Shown here: positions 3,927 through 59,940 of the stretch, piece after piece | Numbering within the stretch: the first letter of the stretch is position 1 | Layout: the number at the start of each line of letters is the position of its first letter | NCBI GenBank assembly: GCA_036337155.1 | Contig: JAYZET010000027.1 | Coordinates: forward strand, 8,009-72,008 | DNA length: 64,000 bases | Source of the DNA: Pseudomonadota bacterium | GTDB lineage: Bacteria; Pseudomonadota; Alphaproteobacteria; UBA8366 | Direction of reading: 5' to 3' | Notes under the pieces: model-generated | Told to the model about the DNA's origin: nothing | The model's database searches: none | The model's input: only the letters and a program-made list of their open reading frames with translations | Made by a program: the position numbers and the translations under genes

Positions 3927-4784
3927 GTGAATAAGCTTTTCGTTACAGCGACCATACTAATATCAACAGTTTTCAGCGGGCAGGTCGCCGCCAGCGAGCC
4001 TACACCATGGCAGATTGGGCTGCAGTCGCCCGTTACGCCAACGGCCGTAATGATCAACAATTTTCATGACGCCCTAAACGTGATCATTTTTTTGATCACA
4101 ATATTTGTGCTTGGATTGCTGCTTTATGCATGCTTCAGGTTCCGCGAAAGCAGAAACCCTACACCTTCAAATACGACCCATAATACGCTCATCGAGATTC
4201 TTTGGACAGTTATCCCAATCGCCATACTTGTTGGCATCGCCATTCCTTCCATGAAGTTGTTGTATTTCGCAGATAAAGTAGAAGACGCTGATATGACGCT
4301 CAAGGTCATTGGCCATCAATGGTATTGGGAGTACCAATATCCAGATCATGGAAATTTTGGCTTCGACGCTAACATGATCCCGGAGGATGAATTGAAGCCG
4401 GGTCAAAAACGGCTTATGGATACAGATAATCCTGTTGTATTGCCGGTTGGGAAGAAAGTTAGGCTTCTATTTGCATCTGTCGATGTCATTCATAATTGGT
4501 CGATGTCCAGCTTCGGCGTGAAAGTAGATACAACACCGGGGCGTCTCAACGAGACCTGGGTCCAAATCGACAAGGCGGGCACTTATTATGGCTTCTGCTC
4601 GGAACTGTGCGGGGTCAATCACGCATTCATGCCTATTATGGTCCAAGCGGTGCCCCCGGCAGATTTTGCTGCTTGGGTTAAAAGGGCGCAAAAAGAATTT
4701 GCGAGGGTCGATAAACCCAGAGCGCCTGTCGGTCAACCAGCCGAGGCGGCCATAAGGGTCGCCGCACGCGATTTGTCCAAGTAG
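3927..4784 (+). CDS. coxB: Cytochrome c oxidase subunit II
   Basis: GHQWYW, DVIHNW, CuA ligands CSELCGVNHAFM; GTG start at 3927 after GGGAG. Confidence 0.96.
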   Translation: MNKLFVTATILISTVFSGQVAASEPTPWQIGLQSPVTPTAVMINNFHDALNVIIFLITIFVLGLLLYACFRFRESRNPTPSNTTHNTLIEILWTVIPIAILVGIAIPSMKLLYFADKVEDADMTLKVIGHQWYWEYQYPDHGNFGFDANMIPEDELKPGQKRLMDTDNPVVLPVGKKVRLLFASVDVIHNWSMSSFGVKVDTTPGRLNETWVQIDKAGTYYGFCSELCGVNHAFMPIMVQAVPPADFAAWVKRAQKEFARVDKPRAPVGQPAEAAIRVAARDLSK

Positions 4785-6419
<1,635 letters not shown>

Positions 6420-6443
6420 CGTCGCGGAGTTCGGAGATAGATC

Positions 6444-7346
6444 TTGGCGCACACCGCCACTCCATCGGCTCCAGCAACGGGCGACGTAAGAGATTACGTG
6501 GCACTCTTAAAGCCGCGCGTTATGTCGCTGGTCGTGTTCACGGCCTTCGCTGGTCTTGTCATAGCGCCGGTAGGGATGCATCCGATACTGGCAGTGGTGG
6601 CAGTTCTCTGCGTAGCCCTGGCGTCAGGCGCGGCGGGCGCAATCAACATGTGGTACGACCGCGATATCGATGCTATCATGCAGCGAACTAACTGCCGCCC
6701 TCTTCCGACTGGCAAAATCGAGCCTGCTGAAGCGTTGTCTTTTGGTATCATCCTTGCCGCGGGCGCGGTGATGTTGATGTTCCTGGCAACAAACGCGGTT
6801 GCGGCAGTGCTGTTGGCCGCAGCTATATTGTTCTACGTTTTCGTGTACACGGTGTGGCTGAAGCGAAGAACGCCGCAAAACATTGTCATTGGGGGCGCCG
6901 CGGGAGCTTTCCCGCCGATGATCGGCTGGGCTGCTGCGACAGGCGACGTTGGAATCGAAGCGGCAATTTTATTCTTTCTGATCTTCTGCTGGACGCCGCC
7001 CCATTTCTGGGCGCTGGCGCTTTATCGCAAAGACGACTATTTCGCGGCAGGGATACCGATGATGCCTATCGCCCGGGGTGCCGCGGCGACAAAACGGCAG
7101 ATGCTCGCTTATACAGTTGTGTTGCTGCCTCTGAGTCTCACCCCTTGTTTATTAGGTTTCGCCGGGTGGCCTATCTTTGGCACGGTCGCAATCATCTTAA
7201 ACGCCGTGTTTTTGTCCCTTGCAGTGGCGGTAGTGCGAGACCCGACCGACCGTAGCGCGCGACGAATGTTCGGTTATTCGATTTTCTATCTCTTCAGCTT
7301 GTTCGCTGTTCTTGTAGCAGACAATCTTGTTACCAGGATACATTAG
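6444..7346 (+). CDS. ctaB: Protoheme IX farnesyltransferase (heme O synthase, CtaB/CyoE)
   Basis: LLKPRV, NMWYDRDID, LKRRTPQNIVIGG, WTPPHFWAL. Confidence 0.95.
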   Translation: MAHTATPSAPATGDVRDYVALLKPRVMSLVVFTAFAGLVIAPVGMHPILAVVAVLCVALASGAAGAINMWYDRDIDAIMQRTNCRPLPTGKIEPAEALSFGIILAAGAVMLMFLATNAVAAVLLAAAILFYVFVYTVWLKRRTPQNIVIGGAAGAFPPMIGWAAATGDVGIEAAILFFLIFCWTPPHFWALALYRKDDYFAAGIPMMPIARGAAATKRQMLAYTVVLLPLSLTPCLLGFAGWPIFGTVAIILNAVFLSLAVAVVRDPTDRSARRMFGYSIFYLFSLFAVLVADNLVTRIH

Positions 7347-7355
7347 GAATACAGA

Positions 7356-7517
7356 ATGATTGTAGATACGATGAGCGATACGGAACAGAAGAGTAAAGAG
7401 CTAGCAAGCGCTCAGCGTCGGCAACGCCGTAAAAATTATACATTAATGACTATTTTGTTTGCATGGGCCGTGATTATCTATCTTGTGGCAATCCTTCGCA
7501 TGGGGGGCGCCTCATGA
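7356..7517 (+). CDS. Small CoxF-like membrane protein (53 aa), absent from the ORF track
   Basis: MIVDTMSDTEQKSKELASAQRRQRRKNYTLMTILFAWAVIIYLVAILRMGGAS; basic patch plus one TM helix; its TGA overlaps the ctaG ATG (ATGA). Confidence 0.75.
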   Translation: MIVDTMSDTEQKSKELASAQRRQRRKNYTLMTILFAWAVIIYLVAILRMGGAS

Positions 7518-8116
7518 CGTCACTCGCCCAAAGAAATCGCCGCCTCGTCTTTGGCCTTGGCGCTGTTGCCATTGGTATGGTGGGCCTATCCTACGCAGCT
7601 GTCCCCCTGTACGACCTCTTTTGCCGGGTGACCGGCTATGGCGGCACGACGCAAGTTGCGATAGAACACAGCGCTGTAGTATCAGAACGTCCTATAAAAG
7701 TGCGGTTTGATGCTATGGTTACCAACATCAACTGGGCCTTCCAGCCGGCCCAGCGGGAGATTGAACTAAAGGTCGGCGAAAACGCCTTGGCTTTCTACCA
7801 AGCCACCAACCGATCATCACAAACCCTTACCGGAACGGCGACCTTCAACGTGACACCGCTTAAGGCCGGAGCCTATTTCAGCAAAGTTGAGTGTTTCTGT
7901 TTTACGGAACAGACACTGGCCCCAGGTGAAACAATAGAAATGCCTGTATCCTTCTTCGTCGACCCAGAAATTGACAAAGATCCAAACCTGAAAGACGTAA
8001 AGACCATCACACTTTCTTACACGTTCTATCCAACAGAACCGACGGATCGGCAAGACGATGAACGACAAGTTAGCGCCAACATCGGTCCCGGAGACCGGTT
8101 GCGGTTGATACAATAG
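7514..8116 (+). CDS. ctaG: Cytochrome c oxidase copper assembly protein CtaG/Cox11
   Basis: YAAVPLYDLFCRVTGYGG, FSKVECFCFTEQ, TITLSYTFY; start at ATG 7514. Confidence 0.95.
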   Translation: MTSLAQRNRRLVFGLGAVAIGMVGLSYAAVPLYDLFCRVTGYGGTTQVAIEHSAVVSERPIKVRFDAMVTNINWAFQPAQREIELKVGENALAFYQATNRSSQTLTGTATFNVTPLKAGAYFSKVECFCFTEQTLAPGETIEMPVSFFVDPEIDKDPNLKDVKTITLSYTFYPTEPTDRQDDERQVSANIGPGDRLRLIQ

Positions 8117-55179: not shown

Positions 55180-56445
55180 ATGTTAGAAGACGGTTACGGA
55201 AACAATCTCAACACGGTCTCGCAATCCGCGCGCGATTACTATATCGACGGCGTAGAGAAATTTTTAGCGGCACAGCAGGGTGCAGAGGCAGCGTTCCGTG
55301 AGTCCACGGAAGCGGACGAAAACCTAGCGGTCAGTCATGTAGGCGTAGCAAGATGCCGGCTGCTGATGGGAGACCGGAACGGCGCGGCGGCCGCTATCGC
55401 CTCCGCCCGCGCGACAGCATCCAGCCTAAGCTCGCGCGAGGCGGCGCATGTCGAGGCAATTGGCCGGCTTGTCGACGGCGACAGTCCAGGTGCCTACAAA
55501 GCTATCCGCGCCCATGTGACCAAGCATCCGCGCGACGTCATGATCGCACAAACCTGCACCAGCGTGTTCGGTCTGATTGGGTTCAGCGGTCGCGAAGGTC
55601 GCGAAGCAGAGCAGCTTGTGTATACTAGTCTGCTCGCGCCTGCCTATGGAGACGACTGGTGGTTTCTCGGTATGCACGCCTTCGCAAAAGCCGAGGTTGG
55701 ACAACTCGACAGCGCTCGCGAGTTGATCGAAAAGGCGCTCGAAGGTAACCCGCGAAGCGCACATAACGCTCATGTTAGCGCTCACATCTACTACGAGGCG
55801 GGCGACAACAAGACTGGTTACCATTTCCTGAAGAATTGGTGGAACGGCTACAACAAGGGAGGCGCGATTCATGGTCATATCTCTTGGCATTTAGCGCTGT
55901 GGACCATGGCGGCCGGCAACACTGAGGCAGCCTGGCAAATCGTTGATGAGCACTGTAAACCCGGTGGCTCGGAAGGTCCGCCTCTAAACATCCTTACCGA
56001 CACGGTATCATTTTTACACCGCGCATCGCTCGCCGGCATCGAAGTCCCTTCGACGCGTTGGCAAGAGATAAGCGAATATGCAGCGAGCTCTTTCCCAACT
56101 TCGGGCATGGCTTTTGCCGACATACACTCGGCACTTGCCCATTGCATGGCTGGAAACATAGACGCCTACGAAACCCTCACCAAAGAAGCCATAGGCCCAG
56201 CGGCAGAGGTGGTTTCATCCGTTTGGGCCGGCTTCAGCGCCTTCGCCAGTGAAATTTGGGATGACGCGGAGCAACATCTTGGCGCCGCGATGTCGGCCCA
56301 TGAACGCCTCGGCGGGAGTTGTGCGCAGCGCGACCTACTGGAGTTCAGCCTCGCATATGCGATGCGGCAACAGGGCAGAAACAAGGACGCCGAACGGATC
56401 ATCGCCATGCGCCGACCAAGACAATCAGAACTTGCGGTCATCTGA
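55180..56445 (+). CDS. TTC38-like TPR protein
   Basis: HPRD, AHVSAHIYYE, HGHISWHLAL, LGGSCAQRD motifs. Confidence 0.8.
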   Translation: MLEDGYGNNLNTVSQSARDYYIDGVEKFLAAQQGAEAAFRESTEADENLAVSHVGVARCRLLMGDRNGAAAAIASARATASSLSSREAAHVEAIGRLVDGDSPGAYKAIRAHVTKHPRDVMIAQTCTSVFGLIGFSGREGREAEQLVYTSLLAPAYGDDWWFLGMHAFAKAEVGQLDSARELIEKALEGNPRSAHNAHVSAHIYYEAGDNKTGYHFLKNWWNGYNKGGAIHGHISWHLALWTMAAGNTEAAWQIVDEHCKPGGSEGPPLNILTDTVSFLHRASLAGIEVPSTRWQEISEYAASSFPTSGMAFADIHSALAHCMAGNIDAYETLTKEAIGPAAEVVSSVWAGFSAFASEIWDDAEQHLGAAMSAHERLGGSCAQRDLLEFSLAYAMRQQGRNKDAERIIAMRRPRQSELAVI

Positions 56446-56528
56446 ACTACCACTCTCTTGTCGATCATCCAACGACGCATCATTTGTCTCACTGTCTCCG
56501 GACAACCAATGAGAAGATAGAGGGCATA

Positions 56529-56897
56529 TTGATCGGTAAATCCGGAAAGCTGAAAAGAGGTATTTGTACATCAGACAAGGAGAGCACCACGGTTCGCGCC
56601 TGGGACTCGTGCAACGACCTCATGGACGTCATGTCCTCCCTAAAATTTTTATTGTTACACCTGACAGGGCAACCGGCGACGCCGGATCAGGTGTTTTTTT
56701 TGGACGGAATGCTAGACGGGCGAGAGAAACATAGAATGGTGCCATGCGGCCAAGCGGCACGGATGACACTAGCCCGAGCTCCCGAGATGCTTCAGGGGGC
56801 TGTGGCGGCTGGAATCAATGGTGTGGGCTCTGTGATTCTCAGCGCAGCGGAGAACGCTGGTAAACTGCTGGTTCGTGTCGTTACCGAGATGAACTAG
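56529..56897 (+). pseudogene. Truncated citryl-CoA lyase / citrate synthase-like gene
   Basis: IGK..ICTSD...TVR, LTGQPATPDQVFFLD, AARMTLA.APE.LQGAVAAG..G.GSVIL; TAG after about 122 codons; no C-terminal PGFGH half. Confidence 0.7.
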
Positions 56898-57117
56898 AAT
56901 ATTGAAACGGGAGAAGTGACGGCTAGCCGGATTGCGCTGGAGCCTCGCAAAAGCGGTCCGTCGGGGCCCAAATTGGTTCTTCTGCATTCTCGCGTCTCCA
57001 CTTATGTGGCTCTACTGCAATCGAGATAGCCCGATAGCCGAGTTTCCAAACGGATGCAGAATAATAATCATCGTGTTATCCTAATTCTGATTTCTTTAGC
57101 GACGGGGAAGATGAACC

Positions 57118-57636
57118 ATGCCAAATGTGCCGCCAACCGGCCCAGTATCACTGCCAAACACGCAGCGTGTCCGCGCCCATTGCCCCGAACTCCTTGAAGG
57201 GCTCAACACCTATTATGAGAAAATTTGGCTTAGCGACCGGGTTGACGCCGGAATCAAGGAATTGGTCCGTATGCGTTGCGCCACTATCAACGAGTGTCGC
57301 TATTGACTGAACTATCGCTATGCCGCGGGCCGGCATCACGGTATTACGGAGGAAAAACTTGCTGAGGTCTCCAATCCCGACCACATAGTCTTCACACCGC
57401 GCGAGCGTGCCGTCCTGCGGTTCGCGGGCGCGATGTCACAGAACGAGACTGATGCGGCTGAGGGCCTGTTTGCGGAGATGCGTGTGTTCTTCGACGACGC
57501 TCAAATTGTAGAGATTGGCTTCGCTGTCGCGACGCTGCACGGAATGAACATCTTCAATAACATGTTTGACATCGAGCCCGAGGACCAAGTCATGGTAAGC
57601 ATGACAGGTATGCCGGAAGAGCAAGCGGCAGAATAA
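57118..57636 (+). CDS. AhpD/CMD-family peroxidase-like protein, probable selenoprotein (CxxU; Sec at TGA 57304-57306)
   Basis: One frame of 172 codons with a single in-frame TGA: KELVRMRCATINEC-R-Y-[TGA]-LNYRY..GITEEKL..FTPRERAVLRFA..FFDDAQIVEI; family motifs on both sides of the TGA. Confidence 0.82.
57313..57343 (+). promoter_or_regulatory. Putative bacterial SECIS hairpin
   Basis: Lower stem TATCG/CGGTA, 2x2 internal loop, upper stem ATGCCG/CGGCAT, loop CGGGC separated from the TGA by 19 nt, G at loop position 2. Confidence 0.65.
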
Positions 57637-57646
57637 GGAGGCAACC

Positions 57647-58507
57647 ATGCCTAAAGCCCTAACCGAGGAAGCTATCGAACGATTACGACACGAAGGTTTT
57701 CATTTTCCGATTCCTGGCGTTACCAAGGCAGAAGCATTGAGCTACCGGCAACAGCTCGAAACATTCGAGGCTGCCAACGGCGGCGCGCTTAAGGGTGCAT
57801 ATCGGTTCAAGACGCACCTGCTTTTTAAATGGCTCGCCAACCTGGTCCGCGCACCACACATCCTCGACCCCGTCGAAGATCTAATCGGGCCGAACATTCT
57901 TTGTTGGACCACGCATTGGTTTATCAAGGAGGCGAACAGCCCAAACTACGTCTCATGGCACCAAGACAATAATTATTGGGGCCTTGGTACTAAGAAGCTT
58001 GTCAGCGTCTGGATTGCTCTGTCACCAGCAACGCGCGAAAGCGGTTGTATGCAGATGCTGCCAGGCAGCCACCTTCACCCGCCGATGCCCCATACCGACA
58101 CGCAGGCCGAGCACAATATGCTGACCCGCGGCCAGACAATTATGGAAATAGACGAAAGACATGCGGTGGACATCGAACTCCGGACTGGAGAAGCCGCCCT
58201 ATTCGACTATTCGATCGCCCACGCCTCTCCCCCTAACCAGAGCAACGACCGGCGCATTGCCATCGTACTGCGCTACATTCCGCCGGAGACAAAGCAGTTG
58301 CTTGCAGATTGGGACAGCGCAGCCTTGGTGCGCGGTGAGGACCGCTACGGCCATTTCGAGCACGAACCGGAGCCAACTTGTGACATGGATCCAGTCGCTG
58401 TCGCCTTCCACCGCAAGGCCGAAGAGATGCAACGGCAGGTCTATTTCAAGGATACCGAGTGGCAAGACAGCCGAGTGTCCGTCCAAGGAGTAGAATCGCC
58501 TTATTGA
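57647..58507 (+). CDS. PhyH-family Fe(II)/2-oxoglutarate dioxygenase
   Basis: VSWHQD, VWIALS, GCMQMLPGSH, IAHAS.PN.SNDRRI; SD AAGGAGG overlaps the upstream stop. Confidence 0.9.
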   Translation: MPKALTEEAIERLRHEGFHFPIPGVTKAEALSYRQQLETFEAANGGALKGAYRFKTHLLFKWLANLVRAPHILDPVEDLIGPNILCWTTHWFIKEANSPNYVSWHQDNNYWGLGTKKLVSVWIALSPATRESGCMQMLPGSHLHPPMPHTDTQAEHNMLTRGQTIMEIDERHAVDIELRTGEAALFDYSIAHASPPNQSNDRRIAIVLRYIPPETKQLLADWDSAALVRGEDRYGHFEHEPEPTCDMDPVAVAFHRKAEEMQRQVYFKDTEWQDSRVSVQGVESPY

Positions 58508-58764: not shown

Positions 58765-59940
58765 ATGAAGGTCCAAGATTGCATAAATCTCGACGATCTG
58801 CGGAAAATTGCAAAAAAACGCGTCCCAAAGATCATTTATGATTTCATCGAAGGTGGGTCGGAAGACGAAGCCGGTCTATCGCGCAACGAAGACGCATTCC
58901 GGAACCGCGCCCTGGTCCCGCGATACATGGTCGATATCTCAACGATCAACCAGAAAACGGAACTCTTCGGACGAACCTATTCAAGCGCATACGGAATTGC
59001 CCCAACCGGCGGCATTTCAAACTATCGCCGCGGGGGCGACCTTATGCTGGCCCGCGCTGCACGTGATGCAAACATTCCATTCATTATGTCTGGCGCTGCA
59101 ACCGCCAAGATGGAAGACGTGGCGCGCGAAGCACCGGATCATGGATGGTATCAACTCTATACAGCGAAAGACCGCTCTATCTCGGAAGACCAAGTTAAAC
59201 GAGCTGCCGACCTCGGCTTTCAAACCCTTGTAATTACTGTCGATGTACCGGCGAGCGGCAATAGGGAACGCAACAAGAGAAATGGCTTCGGCCGGCCACT
59301 GCGGCTTTCCTGGGAGTGCAAGTTCGATGCCTTGCGGCGGCCATTATGGCTGAAAGATTACATGACCCACGGTATCGCGATGATAGCAAATTGGGAGAAA
59401 TATGCACCGGATGGCTCGAATGCTCACGAGGTTGGTGAATTCGTCGCCAACCAGTTTCCAGGGCCCCTTACCTGGCAAGACATAGAGCATTTCCGTCGCC
59501 TTTGGTCCGGCAATCTTGTGTTAAAAGGGATCATGCGGGTCGATGACGCCATCCGCGCGGCTGAGGCCGGCGTCGACGGCTTGATGGTTTCAAACCATGG
59601 TGCTCGGCAGTTAGATCGTGCGCCCTCACCCCTCGACGTGCTGCCCGCTATCAATGCTGCTGTCGGTGACCGCATGATTTTGATGTTGGACGGCGGTGTC
59701 CGGCGCGGCGCAGATATTATGATCGCCCTCTGCCTGGGAGCGAGGTTCGTATTTCTTGGCCGACCGACGCTCTATGGATGTATTGCCGGTGGCCAGGTAG
59801 GCGCAGCGAAGGCCGTTGATATAGTGCTGCAAGAAATTGAAACCAATCTGAAGCAGATCGGTTGTCCATCACTCGATCAACTTGGTCCTGACTTCCTACA
59901 CTGGGACCCAGCGGAGGCGCAAAATAATTTTCGAAACTAA
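58765..59940 (+). CDS. FMN-dependent alpha-hydroxy acid oxidase/dehydrogenase
   Basis: APTG, WYQLY, ITVD, LKGI, VSNHGARQLD, DGGVRRGAD, GRPTLYG. Confidence 0.93.
   Translation: MKVQDCINLDDLRKIAKKRVPKIIYDFIEGGSEDEAGLSRNEDAFRNRALVPRYMVDISTINQKTELFGRTYSSAYGIAPTGGISNYRRGGDLMLARAARDANIPFIMSGAATAKMEDVAREAPDHGWYQLYTAKDRSISEDQVKRAADLGFQTLVITVDVPASGNRERNKRNGFGRPLRLSWECKFDALRRPLWLKDYMTHGIAMIANWEKYAPDGSNAHEVGEFVANQFPGPLTWQDIEHFRRLWSGNLVLKGIMRVDDAIRAAEAGVDGLMVSNHGARQLDRAPSPLDVLPAINAAVGDRMILMLDGGVRRGADIMIALCLGARFVFLGRPTLYGCIAGGQVGAAKAVDIVLQEIETNLKQIGCPSLDQLGPDFLHWDPAEAQNNFRN

What the first reader, a model, noticed from the sequence alone, without database searches (positions are those of the whole stretch)
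57118..57636. Hidden selenoprotein: AhpD/CMD-family gene with CxxU, split into two ORFs by the gene caller
Seen: ORFs 57118-57306 and 57433-57636 share one frame with a single TGA (57304-57306) between them. Read through, the protein is 172 aa with ...RCATINEC-R-Y-U-LNYRY...GITEEKL...FTPRERAVLRFA...FFDDAQIVEI. The downstream ATG has no SD. Established: AhpD/CMD proteins use a CxxC redox motif, and CxxU versions are a known class of bacterial selenoprotein. Inference: the TGA falls exactly on the second Cys and encodes Sec63. The His that usually follows the motif is replaced (LNYRY), which suggests a distinct subfamily.
Basis: partly seen in the sequence, partly recalled or inferred. Interest (0 to 1): 0.88.

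Follow-up and report, generated by a model that had tools for sequence, protein, structure and literature searches.

The report
AhpD-like selenoprotein gene split by annotators
This is a real but ordinary kind of selenoprotein gene, an AhpD-like redox enzyme whose in-frame TGA encodes selenocysteine, from a marine alphaproteobacterial subfamily that public databases record only as two fragments.

Summary
Window 57118-57636 (+) is one 172-codon frame with a single TGA at codon 63 (57304-57306).

Evidence that the TGA encodes selenocysteine:
- All 26 of 26 ortholog sequences examined (window included) carry TGA in that column. None has TGC or TGT.
- dN/dS is 0.02-0.26 on both sides of the TGA.
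- A hairpin at 57313-57343 meets all four published bacterial SECIS criteria. 98.6% of its cells pair, and three pairs show compensatory changes.
- SelA, SelB and tRNA-Sec are in the genome. SelD was not found in this 74%-complete assembly but is present in 6 of 8 genomes of the genus.
- TGA is otherwise the commonest stop codon.
- In distant full-length homologs the same column is the second Cys of CxxC.
- The modelled fold (pLDDT 95) is AhpD-like.

The kind is well known: CxxU AhpD-like and CMD selenoproteins were described from the Sargasso Sea and GOS data in 2005 and 2008.

What is modestly new:
- The subfamily is all-Sec as far as sampled, and forms one clade with 99% support.
- It reaches no curated NCBIfam selenoprotein model.
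- Public databases hold it only as 62-aa and 97-aa fragments.
- It sits beside three different Fe(II)/2-oxoglutarate dioxygenase genes in three clades.

This is a new member of a known kind.

The parts
57104..57110 (+). Shine-Dalgarno-like GGGGAAG, 7 nt upstream of the start codon
   Evidence: Read directly from the sequence. Purine-rich runs (GGGGAG, GAGAGG, GGGAG) lie in the same place in 6 of the 8 full-length genome orthologs printed. L022 and L023 have AGGTG and GAGGGTG instead.
57118..57636 (+). Complete selenoprotein CDS of 172 codons plus a TAA stop; an AhpD-like / CMD-family protein
   Evidence: Translation. Pfam CMD PF02627, E 4.5e-12, residues 23-103. AlphaFold2 model with pLDDT 95.1 and pTM 0.89. 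Foldseek TM 0.69-0.76 to PA0269, Mlr4105, Atu0492 and the D. radiodurans alkyl hydroperoxide reductase. dN/dS is 0.02-0.26 on both sides of the TGA in the pairs that are not saturated.
57295..57306 (+). Redox motif C60-R61-Y62-U63; the Sec codon TGA is at 57304-57306
   Evidence: The motif is C-x-Y-U in 26 of 26 orthologs. It aligns to CxxC in distant homologs and in PA0269. C60 and C63 are at least 90% conserved across the 107-row superfamily alignment.
57313..57343 (+). Bacterial SECIS-type hairpin. Lower stem 57313-57317 / 57339-57343; upper stem 57320-57325 / 57331-57336; apical loop CGGGC at 57326-57330, 19 nt after the UGA
   Evidence: MFE is -11.8 kcal/mol here and -12.5 to -14.2 in five orthologs. 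Across 19 distinct sequences 98.6% of cells pair, against 24-55% when the partners are slid. Three pairs have compensatory double changes (AU/UA in 9, UA/CG in 5, CG/UA in 4). The hairpin fits all four bSECIS criteria in PMC13188914, section 5.
57316..57318 (+). Codon for R67, at the position of the His that follows CxxC in PA0269-type AhpD proteins
   Evidence: In the HMM alignment, query c-l-n-f-r matches PA0269 C-V-N-M-H. R67 is invariant in the 9 orthologs of A1. Arg is also present in 6 of 19 Cys homologs.
57647..58507 (+). PhyH-family Fe(II)/2-oxoglutarate dioxygenase gene, 10 nt downstream with AAGGAGG in front; a probable operon partner in this clade
   Evidence: Pfam PhyH, E 1.5e-28. 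It lies directly downstream in the window and in all 13 ortholog loci of clade A: L017-L019, L024 and L044-L051, plus L036-L038 and L042, which come from the same genomes as L017-L019 and L024. An RNA-library contig covers 57479-57680, across the junction.
58765..59940 (+). FMN-dependent alpha-hydroxy-acid dehydrogenase gene; conserved neighbour in the closest clade
   Evidence: Pfam FMN_dh, E 3.6e-121. Found downstream of PhyH in L018, L019, L024, L037, L038 and L042.

Best explanation
57118-57636 is one gene for a 172-residue AhpD-like (CMD-superfamily) selenoprotein.

Decoding. The UGA at codon 63 is recoded to selenocysteine. The hairpin at 57313-57343, with its apical loop CGGGC 19 nt past the UGA, serves as the bacterial SECIS that recruits SelB carrying Sec-tRNA(Sec). 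The conserved UGA, the conserved and covarying hairpin, and the presence of SelA, SelB and tRNA-Sec are shown. Actual selenium insertion is inferred.

Chemistry (all inferred). The protein is a small all-helical thiol/selenol oxidoreductase whose redox centre is C60-x-x-U63. Sec occupies the place of the second Cys of CxxC, the most conserved one. By analogy with AhpD, the selenolate attacks an oxidised substrate such as a peroxide, a sulfenic acid or a disulfide. C60 then resolves the adduct into an intramolecular selenenylsulfide, and a cellular thiol system reduces that bond again. Arg67 replaces the His that helps deprotonate the Cys in classical AhpD. This is plausible because a selenol is already ionised at physiological pH.

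The physiological substrate is unknown. Gene context suggests a link to Fe(II)/2-oxoglutarate dioxygenase-based catabolism.
For: 1. There is a single in-frame TGA, and the CMD domain match spans it.
2. TGA is in the same column in 26 of 26 ortholog sequences, window included. These are 9 loci from the relatives search (window included), 1 further named genome and 16 metagenome loci. The metagenome scan used two seeds, HGMN[IQ]FN and YCLN[FY]RYA. The second requires a Cys codon at the Sec position, so it cannot match TGA-bearing DNA, and Cys forms could have matched either seed. The sample was therefore not biased towards TGA.
3. An exhaustive search of 1.84 billion representatives found only fragments among the close hits, ending at residue 62 or starting at 64, 76 or 106. 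The nearest full-length proteins are at most 38% identical.
4. dN/dS for L016-L017 is 0.033 upstream and 0.031 downstream. For L020-L021 it is 0.041 and 0.022; for L022-L023, 0.071 and 0.044. For codons 64-105 it is 0.00-0.32.
5. The hairpin pairs in 98.6% of cells, against 24-55% in the slid controls. Three pairs are compensatory, and 0 of 500 shuffles reach the observed covariation score. RNAalifold predicts the same stem on its own. MFE is -11.8 to -14.2 kcal/mol. All four bSECIS criteria quoted in PMC13188914 are met.
6. SelA scores 529 bits and SelB 459 bits, and the two genes are adjacent on C17. tRNA-Sec scores 81 bits. SelD is over the cut-off in 6 of 8 genomes of the genus.
7. TGA ends 365 of 982 long ORFs, so the genome is not TGA-recoded.
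8. Two peroxiredoxin-family genes in the same genome also carry one TGA each, at the catalytic position (WUPPC and FGNNUS).
9. The aligned column is Cys in at least 90% of the alignment with 19 distant homologs and of the 107-row alignment.
10. The AF2 model has pLDDT 95.1 and an AhpD-like fold.
11. One RNA-library contig at 99% identity or better (X1, 57192-57449) covers the TGA with the TGA unchanged. A second contig from another study (X3, 57169-57336) reaches only 30 letters past it.
Against: - No selD was found in this assembly. The best TIGR00476 hit scores 58.9 bits against a cut-off of 125. The assembly is 73.6% complete.
- Single-sequence folding is not better than shuffles. z is +0.83 for the 76-nt stretch and -1.05 for the 31-nt hairpin, and 28 of 200 shuffles fold as well. 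The case for the hairpin therefore rests on covariation.
- The three compensatory pairs probably reflect only about three events on the tree, and the sequences are related.
- No Rfam family matches.
- One database protein, P0058 (90 aa, 53% identical), spans the site without a stop and reads W where the others read Y-U. It also has a further deletion and an out-of-frame C-terminus, so it looks like an error-rich or decayed copy.
- The RNA contigs come from RNA libraries that may contain DNA.
- There is no direct evidence of selenium in the protein, and no biochemical evidence of activity or substrate.
Confidence: 0.92

Rival explanations
1. The UGA is decoded, but not as selenocysteine. Near-cognate or programmed read-through inserts Trp, Cys or Arg, and the hairpin merely slows the ribosome.
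For: Nothing here measures selenium. selD was not found in this assembly. The hairpin is not exceptional thermodynamically.
Against: The complete recoding apparatus apart from selD is present, and selD is present in 6 of 8 sister genomes. The UGA sits exactly on a catalytic Cys column of a redox motif. The hairpin fits the SelB-type consensus in loop sequence and spacing. TGA is kept in 26 of 26 sequences with never a sense codon, which is hard to explain if an ordinary residue were acceptable there.
Confidence: 0.04
2. There are two separate small genes, or a 62-residue product with an independently translated C-terminal piece, as the gene callers annotate. The TGA would then be a true stop.
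For: Public databases hold exactly these pieces: 62-aa N-terminal fragments in a cluster of 30 members, one of them seen on 64 contigs, and 97-aa C-terminal fragments.
Against: The Pfam domain (23-103) and the confident single-domain fold cross the stop. Codons 64-105 lie in no called ORF of the window yet have dN/dS of 0.00-0.32. The internal start is not conserved: M76 in most orthologs is Ile (ATT) in the window and Val in L041. There is no SD before 57433. The frame is kept across the TGA in 26 of 26 sequences.
Confidence: 0.02
3. The TGA is a nonsense mutation, a pseudogene, or a sequencing or assembly error in this MAG.
For: The window comes from a fragmented metagenome-assembled genome of 36 contigs, 73.6% complete.
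Against: The same TGA is present in 25 other sequences from independent assemblies at 65-98% identity. It is also present in an RNA-library contig that covers the site. Purifying selection acts on both sides.
Confidence: 0.01

Closest known systems
AhpD-like (COG2128 / TIGR01926, CxxU) and CMD domain-containing (PF02627, CxxU) selenoprotein families of marine metagenomes (Zhang, Fomenko and Gladyshev 2005, PMC1088965; Zhang and Gladyshev 2008, PMC2398784; listed in the 2026 review PMC13188914)
   Same: Same superfamily domain (PF02627 over its cut-off). Same CxxU motif with Sec on the second Cys. Same marine planktonic habitat, going by the record titles and sources. Same bSECIS type. I read passages and tables of these papers, not the whole texts.
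   Different: The protein scores only 39.4 bits on TIGR01926, whose cut-off is 81.8. Its orthologs form their own clade with 99% support, away from four other Sec paralogs of related genomes. Whether the published lists already include this subfamily cannot be told, because the sequence lists are in supplements that were closed.
PA0269 (AhpD of Pseudomonas aeruginosa; PDB 2ijc, 2o4d, 7xw1) and Atu0492 (2gmy)
   Same: These are the best matches among solved structures, both by sequence (E 4.5e-17, residues 44-155) and by fold (TM 0.69 normalised to the query, 0.80-0.83 to the target; rmsd 2.2-2.5 A). The CxxC motif is in the same place.
   Different: Only 24-30% identical. They have Cys, not Sec. 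They have His four residues after the second Cys, where this family has Arg67. This protein has an extra N-terminal segment of about 40 residues with an invariant Cys22 (RAHCPELL), plus an invariant Cys54.
NCBIfam NF053654, YciW-related (seleno)protein (GroundWater_YciW)
   Same: It is the best-scoring curated family, and it is itself a mixed Sec/Cys AhpD-like family.
   Different: 62 bits against a cut-off of 310, so this protein is not a member. The same holds for orthologs L041 (62.3) and L058 (78.3).
Mycobacterium tuberculosis AhpD (PDB 1knc, 1lw1)
   Same: Same superfamily and the same CxxC-type redox chemistry. It serves as the mechanistic template.
   Different: The structural match is weak (TM 0.44-0.50, E about 0.6). 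MtAhpD is a two-repeat protein with Cys and His, and it works with AhpC and a lipoamide system.
Bmp8, the CMD-family tetrabromopyrrole debrominase (PDB 6ohi, 6ohj)
   Same: Detectable sequence similarity (E 8e-8, residues 23-156) and fold similarity (TM 0.72-0.73). It shows that marine CMD proteins can do Cys-based reductive chemistry other than peroxide reduction.
   Different: Only 19-20% identical. No halogenase or bmp-type genes are nearby. The comparison with the deiodinase-like mechanism is recalled. No paper on Bmp8 was found in the searchable library.

Membership tests
Bacterial SelB/bSECIS-dependent selenoprotein | In-frame UGA conserved among orthologs, with coding constraint continuing beyond it | tested here: met
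   26 of 26 sequences have TGA at codon 63. dN/dS downstream is 0.02-0.26.
Bacterial SelB/bSECIS-dependent selenoprotein | Cys-containing homologs with Cys aligned to the UGA | tested here: met
   The column is Cys in at least 90% of the alignment with 19 distant full-length homologs and of the 107-row alignment. PA0269 has C-A-Y-C there. No close Cys ortholog exists; the nearest, P0020, is about 35% identical.
Bacterial SelB/bSECIS-dependent selenoprotein | bSECIS hairpin with a 3-9 nt apical loop, a 4-16 bp upper stem, G in the first two loop positions, 16-37 nt from the UGA to the loop, and MFE of -7.5 kcal/mol or lower (criteria as printed in PMC13188914, section 5) | tested here: met
   The loop is CGGGC/U (5 nt, G at position 2, followed by G). 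The upper stem is 6-7 bp. The spacing is 19 nt. MFE is -11.8 kcal/mol (criteria). Three pairs covary.
Bacterial SelB/bSECIS-dependent selenoprotein | selA, selB and selC (tRNA-Sec) in the genome | tested here: met
   SelA 529.5 bits, SelB 459.2 bits and tRNA-Sec 81.1 bits, all over their cut-offs.
Bacterial SelB/bSECIS-dependent selenoprotein | selD (selenophosphate synthetase) in the genome | tested here: inconclusive
   Not over the cut-off in this 73.6%-complete assembly. Over the cut-off in 6 of 8 genomes of the genus; it is lacking only in this one and in a 64%-complete one.
Bacterial SelB/bSECIS-dependent selenoprotein | Selenium actually incorporated at the UGA | not testable with these tools
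   Needs 75Se labelling or mass spectrometry.
CMD / AhpD-like superfamily (Pfam PF02627; NCBIfam TIGR00778 AhpD core domain) | Profile match over the curated cut-off | tested here: met
   PF02627 scores 46.2 bits against 23. TIGR00778 scores 28.1 against 27.8, only just over.
CMD / AhpD-like superfamily (Pfam PF02627; NCBIfam TIGR00778 AhpD core domain) | All-helical AhpD-like fold | tested here: met
   AF2 pLDDT 95.1. 37 PDB chains match at E <= 0.001. All 18 of those listed in the output are AhpD-like or CMD proteins, with TM 0.65-0.76.
CMD / AhpD-like superfamily (Pfam PF02627; NCBIfam TIGR00778 AhpD core domain) | CxxC redox motif followed by His (the proton-relay residue of classical AhpD) | tested here: not met
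   The motif is present as CxxU, but the His position is Arg67, invariant in the 9 orthologs aligned. This excludes a classical AhpD active site, not membership of the superfamily. Six of 19 Cys homologs also have Arg.
NCBIfam NF053654 YciW-related (seleno)protein; TIGR01926 peroxidase-related enzyme; NF041047; NF041238 | Score over the curated whole-protein cut-off | tested here: not met
   62 against 310, 39.4 against 81.8, 27 against 110 and 15.2 against 175. Orthologs L041 and L058 also stay below the cut-offs of NF053654 and TIGR01926.
Published 'AhpD-like 1' / 'CMD domain-containing' marine selenoprotein families | COG2128 or PF02627 domain with a CxxU motif | tested here: met
   Domain and motif both present. 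Definitions come from the tables in PMC2398784 and PMC1088965.
Published 'AhpD-like 1' / 'CMD domain-containing' marine selenoprotein families | Sequence-level clustering with the published members | not testable with these tools
Bmp8-type CMD debrominase | Association with brominase / bmp biosynthetic genes and debrominase activity | tested here: not met
   Neighbours are PhyH, FMN_dh, MFS, TauD, AMP-ligase, ECH and the like. There is no halogenase. Activity is not testable here.

The most novel reading that the evidence does not exclude
This obligately selenocysteine-containing AhpD-like subfamily is a dedicated redox accessory of Fe(II)/2-oxoglutarate dioxygenases. It would either remove the peroxide or radical by-products of uncoupled turnover, or re-reduce the inactivated iron centre. 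The second role is the one ascorbate plays for eukaryotic 2OG oxygenases, a comparison I recall rather than read here.

Basis. The gene lies on the same strand directly beside three different dioxygenases in three clades: PhyH downstream in clade A, TauD downstream in clade B, and a different PhyH upstream in clade C. Within this genome, 3 of 9 CMD-family genes lie within 700 nt of such a dioxygenase, against a random baseline of 3.6%.

Against. The genome is extraordinarily rich in these dioxygenases, with 16 PhyH and 46 TauD matches in 2.3 Mb. Two of the five contexts (L041, L058) show none adjacent. The clades are not independent.
Probability: 0.12. Interest if true: 0.7.

Novelty: new member of a known kind. 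Interest (0 to 1): 0.3.

Why it matters
There are three practical consequences.

1. Annotation. A gene widespread in marine Alphaproteobacteria is recorded in public databases only as two meaningless fragments. The 62-aa pieces are called "carboxymuconolactone decarboxylase family protein" or "alkylhydroperoxidase family enzyme". The 97-aa pieces are called "hypothetical protein" or "alkylhydroperoxidase family enzyme". No curated NCBIfam selenoprotein model reaches it. A dedicated model would repair dozens of records and improve selenoproteome counts for ocean metagenomes.

2. Evolution. As far as sampled, the subfamily has no Cys-containing orthologs. Most AhpD-like selenoproteins have abundant Cys homologs; for example, the GOS table gives 902 Cys homologs for 299 Sec forms of AhpD-like 1. 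This makes it a useful case for asking when Sec becomes irreplaceable.

3. Function. The repeated adjacency to Fe(II)/2OG dioxygenases gives a testable lead to the function of AhpD-like proteins, which are mostly uncharacterised.

None of this changes what is known about how selenoproteins work.

Tried and rejected
- Rfam scan of 57200-57450 at E <= 10: no match. Rfam's bacterial SECIS models evidently do not cover this hairpin.
- Single-sequence folding significance: not significant. z is +0.83 for the 76-nt stretch, and -0.63 to -2.24 for the 31-nt hairpins. I relied on covariation instead.
- SelW-like (Rdx, PF10262) search of the genome: nothing. GRDB/PrdB (PF07355): three weak partial matches, none with a TGA. 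Neither helped to show use of Sec. The Prx search did.
- PhyH as a family-wide partner: rejected. The window's PhyH is adjacent only in clade A.
No earlier notes were used.
- RNA evidence: the 7 RNA runs found hold only small shares (0.05-0.11) of the sampled words. The 4 runs laid give short contigs (151-259 nt) at low depth, and DNA carry-over cannot be excluded. The parts of the stretch without cover say nothing.
- Literature: no paper holding both 'Bmp8' and 'debrominase' in the searchable library. A search for papers joining CMD, phytanoyl-CoA dioxygenase and selenocysteine listed none that held all three terms; 14 papers held two of the three, and I saw only the search listing of 10 of them.
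- P0058, the one protein that spans the Sec site without a stop, was examined as a possible sense-codon form and rejected. It reads W in place of Y-U, has a second deletion, and is out of frame after about residue 57.
- The search for homologous proteins was run only at 'near' lengths, so fused forms were not sought with that tool. The search without a length limit shows two-domain proteins only at 35% identity or less.
- The careful tree search did not finish in the time allowed. The tree cited is the quick IQ-TREE tree with SH-aLRT support.
Full report
OBSERVATION

The window has two called ORFs in one frame, 57118-57306 (62 aa) and 57433-57636 (67 aa). Reading 57118-57636 through gives 172 residues with a single TGA at codon 63 (57304-57306), then TAA. 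The start at 57118 is preceded by GGGGAAG, while the ATG at 57433 has no such run. The Pfam CMD domain match covers residues 23-103, straight across the TGA (E 4.5e-12, 46.2 bits against a cut-off of 23).

IS THE TGA CONSERVED?

A six-frame search of 61 genomes (G000 plus 60 relatives) found 9 places with 69-99% identity, the window's own included. Each has exactly one TGA. A scan of named genomes added one more, L041, from a Pseudomonadota MAG. Its other hits come from the same genomes as before. Their record titles name marine Alphaproteobacteria, Rhodospirillaceae and 'Rickettsiales' MAGs.

A metagenome scan gave 16 further loci at 65-98% identity. It used two seeds, HGMN[IQ]FN and YCLN[FY]RYA. 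The second requires a Cys codon at the Sec position, so it cannot match TGA-bearing DNA. A Cys form could have matched either seed, so the sample was not biased towards TGA.

In all 26 of 26 sequences (window included, some of them near-duplicates) the TGA is at codon 63, in the motif C-x-Y-U-L-N-[YF]-R-Y-A-A-G. None has TGC or TGT.

WHAT THE PROTEIN DATABASES HOLD

A word-based search of 5.8 billion proteins returned 17 hits. All are C-terminal pieces: 15 of 97 aa, one of 106 and one of 124.

An exhaustive HMMER search of 1.84 billion cluster representatives found fragments among the close hits, matching residues 1-62, 64-167, 76-172 or 106-172. The nearest full-length proteins are at most 38% identical.

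There is one exception. P0058 (90 aa, 53% identical) spans the site and reads W where the others read Y-U. It also carries another deletion and an out-of-frame tail, so it looks like an error-rich or decayed copy.

The sources name the fragments 'carboxymuconolactone decarboxylase family protein', 'alkylhydroperoxidase family enzyme' or 'hypothetical protein'. One 62-aa fragment was seen on 64 contigs. No full-length record was seen.

SELECTION

Nei-Gojobori estimates were made on the 28 pairs of 8 full-length orthologs. Many pairs are saturated at synonymous sites. Where dS is finite, dN/dS is low on both sides of the TGA:

| Pair | Upstream (codons 1-62) | Downstream (codons 64-172) |
|---|---|---|
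| L016-L017 | 0.033 | 0.031 |
| L020-L021 | 0.041 | 0.022 |
| L022-L023 | 0.071 | 0.044 |

Codons 64-105 lie in no called ORF of the window, and there dN/dS is 0.00-0.32. The whole frame is therefore one coding unit.

THE HAIRPIN

Thirteen to 39 nt after the UGA lies a stem-loop at 57313-57343. Its lower stem has 5 pairs, its upper stem has 6 pairs, and its loop is CGGGC.

In 19 distinct sequences 98.6% of cells form standard pairs, against 24-55% when the 3' partners are slid by 1-3 columns. 0 of 500 shuffles reach the observed covariation score.

Three pairs show changes on both sides:
- A-U / U-A in 9 sequences. Here the Tyr/Phe codon change is matched by a synonymous GGU/GGA change in a Gly codon.
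- U-A / C-G in 5 sequences.
- C-G / U-A in 4 sequences.

RNAalifold finds the same structure without guidance. MFE is -11.8 kcal/mol here and -12.5 to -14.2 in five orthologs.

The hairpin was tested against the bSECIS model printed in PMC13188914, section 5 (passages read):

| Criterion | Required | Found |
|---|---|---|
| Apical loop | 3-9 nt | 5 nt |
| Upper stem | 4-16 bp | 6-7 bp |
| G in the first two loop positions | at least one | G at position 2, followed by G |
| UGA to apical loop | 16-37 nt | 19 nt |
| MFE | -7.5 kcal/mol or lower | -11.8 kcal/mol |

All criteria are met.

Caveats:
- Single-sequence folding is not better than shuffles.
- The compensatory changes probably amount to about three events on the tree.
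- Rfam has no match.

MACHINERY AND GENETIC CODE

- SelA (529 bits) and SelB (459 bits) lie side by side on contig C17. A tRNA-Sec (81 bits) is on C10.
- SelD was not found in this 73.6%-complete assembly. It is over the cut-off in 6 of 8 genomes of the genus. It is missing only here and in a 64%-complete genome.
- TGA ends 365 of 982 long ORFs, so it is an ordinary stop in this organism.
- Of 10 CMD-domain matches in the genome, only this one contains a TGA.
- Two peroxiredoxin-family genes elsewhere in the genome carry one TGA each at the catalytic position (…WUPPC… and …FGNNUS…). The Sec trait is therefore in use elsewhere.
- One RNA-library contig at 99% identity or better (X1, 57192-57449) covers the TGA with the TGA intact. 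A second contig from another study (X3, 57169-57336) reaches only 30 letters past the TGA, one short of the tool's 31-letter rule for bridging. A third (X2, 57479-57680) bridges the junction to the next gene. DNA carry-over cannot be excluded.

WHAT THE PROTEIN IS

- In an alignment with 19 distant full-length homologs, the column of U63 is Cys in at least 90% of rows. The first Cys (C60) is also largely conserved. Both are at least 90% conserved in a 107-row alignment.
- The best solved relatives by sequence are PA0269 (AhpD of P. aeruginosa, E 4.5e-17), Atu0492 and, more distantly, the debrominase Bmp8 (E 8e-8).
- An AlphaFold2 model built on the 107-row alignment has pLDDT 95.1 and pTM 0.89. 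It is all-helical.
- Foldseek matches it to AhpD-like proteins with TM 0.65-0.76. These include PA0269, Mlr4105, Atu0492, the D. radiodurans alkyl hydroperoxide reductase and Bmp8. The match to M. tuberculosis AhpD itself is only weak (TM 0.44-0.50).
- The His that follows CxxC in PA0269 (C-A-Y-C-V-N-M-H) is Arg67 here, and R67 is invariant in the 9 orthologs aligned. Six of the 19 Cys homologs also have Arg at this position, so it marks a wider branch, not the Sec form alone.
- Two further Cys residues, C22 and C54, are invariant in the orthologs. Their role is unknown.

MECHANISM

Shown: a conserved UGA, a covarying SECIS-type hairpin, the Sec machinery, an AhpD-like fold, and Sec at the catalytic Cys column.

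Inferred: SelB-dependent insertion of Sec. The selenolate of U63 attacks an oxidised substrate, C60 resolves the adduct to a selenenylsulfide, and a thiol system reduces it again. Arg67 stands in for the His because a selenol needs no general base.

The roles of the Cys and His residues in classical AhpD are recalled from my own knowledge and were not read here.

PLACE AMONG KNOWN FAMILIES

The kind is well known. AhpD-like CxxU selenoproteins (COG2128) numbered 27 in the Sargasso Sea data, alongside 4 'CMD domain-containing' CxxU selenoproteins (PMC1088965, passages and tables). 'AhpD-like 1' was the fourth most abundant selenoprotein family in GOS, with 299 sequences and 902 Cys homologs (PMC2398784, table 2).

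This protein reaches none of the curated NCBIfam selenoprotein models:

| Model | Score (bits) | Cut-off (bits) |
|---|---|---|
| NF053654 | 62 | 310 |
| TIGR01926 | 39.4 | 81.8 |
| NF041047 | 27 | 110 |
| NF041238 | 15.2 | 175 |
| TIGR00778 (generic AhpD core domain) | 28.1 | 27.8 |

Only the last, generic model is passed, and only just. Four other TGA-containing AhpD-like paralogs from related genomes (motifs CPFU, CQRU/CRRU, CAYU and CSYU) also stay below every family-level cut-off.

In a quick maximum-likelihood tree of 111 sequences, the 13 orthologs form one clade (SH-aLRT 99) on a long stem. Their sister is a single Cys protein, P0020, which is a singleton cluster (support 88). The four Sec paralogs sit in four other places. 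This fits repeated Cys-to-Sec switches in the superfamily.

Whether the published lists already contain this clade could not be checked, because supplements are closed.

GENE CONTEXT

In the window the gene is followed after 10 nt by a PhyH-family dioxygenase gene with AAGGAGG in front. After that come an FMN-dependent dehydrogenase gene and an MFS transporter gene. Context across the clades:

| Clade or locus | Loci | Neighbours |
|---|---|---|
| A | window, L017-19, L024, L044-51 | This PhyH directly downstream |
| B | L020, L021, L052 | TauD-family dioxygenase 8-11 nt downstream; an AMP-ligase upstream; a second TauD beyond (seen in L020 and L021; L052 ends inside the first TauD) |
| C | L022, L023, L053, L055-57, L059 | A different PhyH about 70 nt upstream. 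An enoyl-CoA hydratase downstream in L022, L023, L053 and L056. L057 instead has a second AhpD-like Sec gene downstream. L055 and L059 end at or inside the gene. |
| L054 | L054 | Enoyl-CoA hydratase downstream; the contig starts 113 nt before the gene, so the upstream side cannot be seen |
| L041 | L041 | MFS, enoyl-CoA hydratase, 2-hydroxyacid dehydrogenase, TPP enzyme and CoA-transferase; no adjacent dioxygenase |
| L058 | L058 | An EAL/cNMP-binding gene |

So 3 of 5 contexts have an adjacent Fe(II)/2OG dioxygenase, and it is of three different types.

The baseline is high. This 2.3-Mb assembly has 16 PhyH and 46 TauD matches. Even so, 3 of its 9 CMD-family genes lie within 700 nt of one, against 3.6% for random positions (binomial tail 0.003). 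This is a lead to function, not a finding.

VERDICT

This is a genuine CxxU selenoprotein of the AhpD-like superfamily (confidence 0.92).

It is a new member of a known kind. What is worth recording:
- the subfamily is all-Sec as far as sampled;
- no curated selenoprotein model reaches it;
- public data consistently split it into two fragments;
- it is repeatedly adjacent to Fe(II)/2OG dioxygenases.

Interest 0.3.

Noticed in passing
G000:C9:16397-16795 (-) and G000:C23:31713-32078 (-), outside the window: Two peroxiredoxin-family (AhpC-TSA) genes each carry one in-frame TGA at the catalytic position (…VWUPPCW… and …AFGNNUSKQ…). They are probably Prx-like and Prx/BCP-type selenoproteins of the same genome.
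   Followed up: partly
L057:2089-2544 (+): Directly downstream of the ortholog in this metagenome contig lies a second AhpD-like gene, 28.6% identical, with its own in-frame TGA in the motif C-S-Y-U. This is a tandem pair of AhpD-like selenoprotein genes. The contig ends inside it.
   Followed up: partly
whole genome G000: There is an extraordinary expansion of Fe(II)/2OG dioxygenases: 16 PhyH and 46 TauD-family matches in a 2.29-Mb, 73.6%-complete assembly, several of them in tandem.
   Followed up: no
G000:C20:7885-8139 with C20:7035-7826; G000:C26:26808-27056 with C26:27464-28285: Two Cys-type CMD-family genes of the same genome also lie 59 and 408 nt from TauD-family dioxygenase genes. With the window's gene that makes 3 of 9 CMD genes adjacent, against a 3.6% random baseline.
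   Followed up: partly
L035:1492-2037 (-), L063:420-950 (+), L064 (+), L065:402-1106 (+): Related genomes hold at least three further distinct AhpD-like selenoprotein paralog types (CPFU, CQRU/CRRU, CAYU). None reaches a curated NCBIfam family-level cut-off, so they are probably mis-annotated too.
   Followed up: partly
window 57343-57345 (codon 76): Most orthologs have Met (ATG) at codon 76, which is why databases hold 97-aa fragments. The window has Ile (ATT) there, so a gene caller falls back to M106 and calls only 67 aa. L041 has Val (GTG).
   Followed up: yes
window 57337: An RNA-library contig (run X1) and the 98%-identical metagenome locus L044 read G where the window has C (His74 to Asp). 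In the RNAalifold structure this turns the lone U-C mismatch at columns 19/37 into a U-G pair.
   Followed up: no
window 56319-56897 (+): This 192-aa ORF upstream has no Pfam match. Its residues 70-192 are 71% identical to the corresponding region of L036. It overlaps the end of the TPR-protein ORF 55180-56445, so the true start is probably later.
   Followed up: no
L041:792-2444 (+), 4520-5371 (-), 5465-6445 (-), 6508-7881 (-): The most divergent named ortholog sits among a TPP-dependent enzyme, an enoyl-CoA hydratase, a D-2-hydroxyacid dehydrogenase and a family III CoA-transferase. This acyl-CoA / 2-hydroxyacid theme recurs in the other contexts (AMP-ligase, ECH, FMN-dependent hydroxyacid dehydrogenase).
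   Followed up: no
G000:C17:49703-52758 (-): selA and selB are adjacent, 44 nt apart on the same strand. tRNA-Sec lies on a different contig (C10:178731-178821).
   Followed up: no
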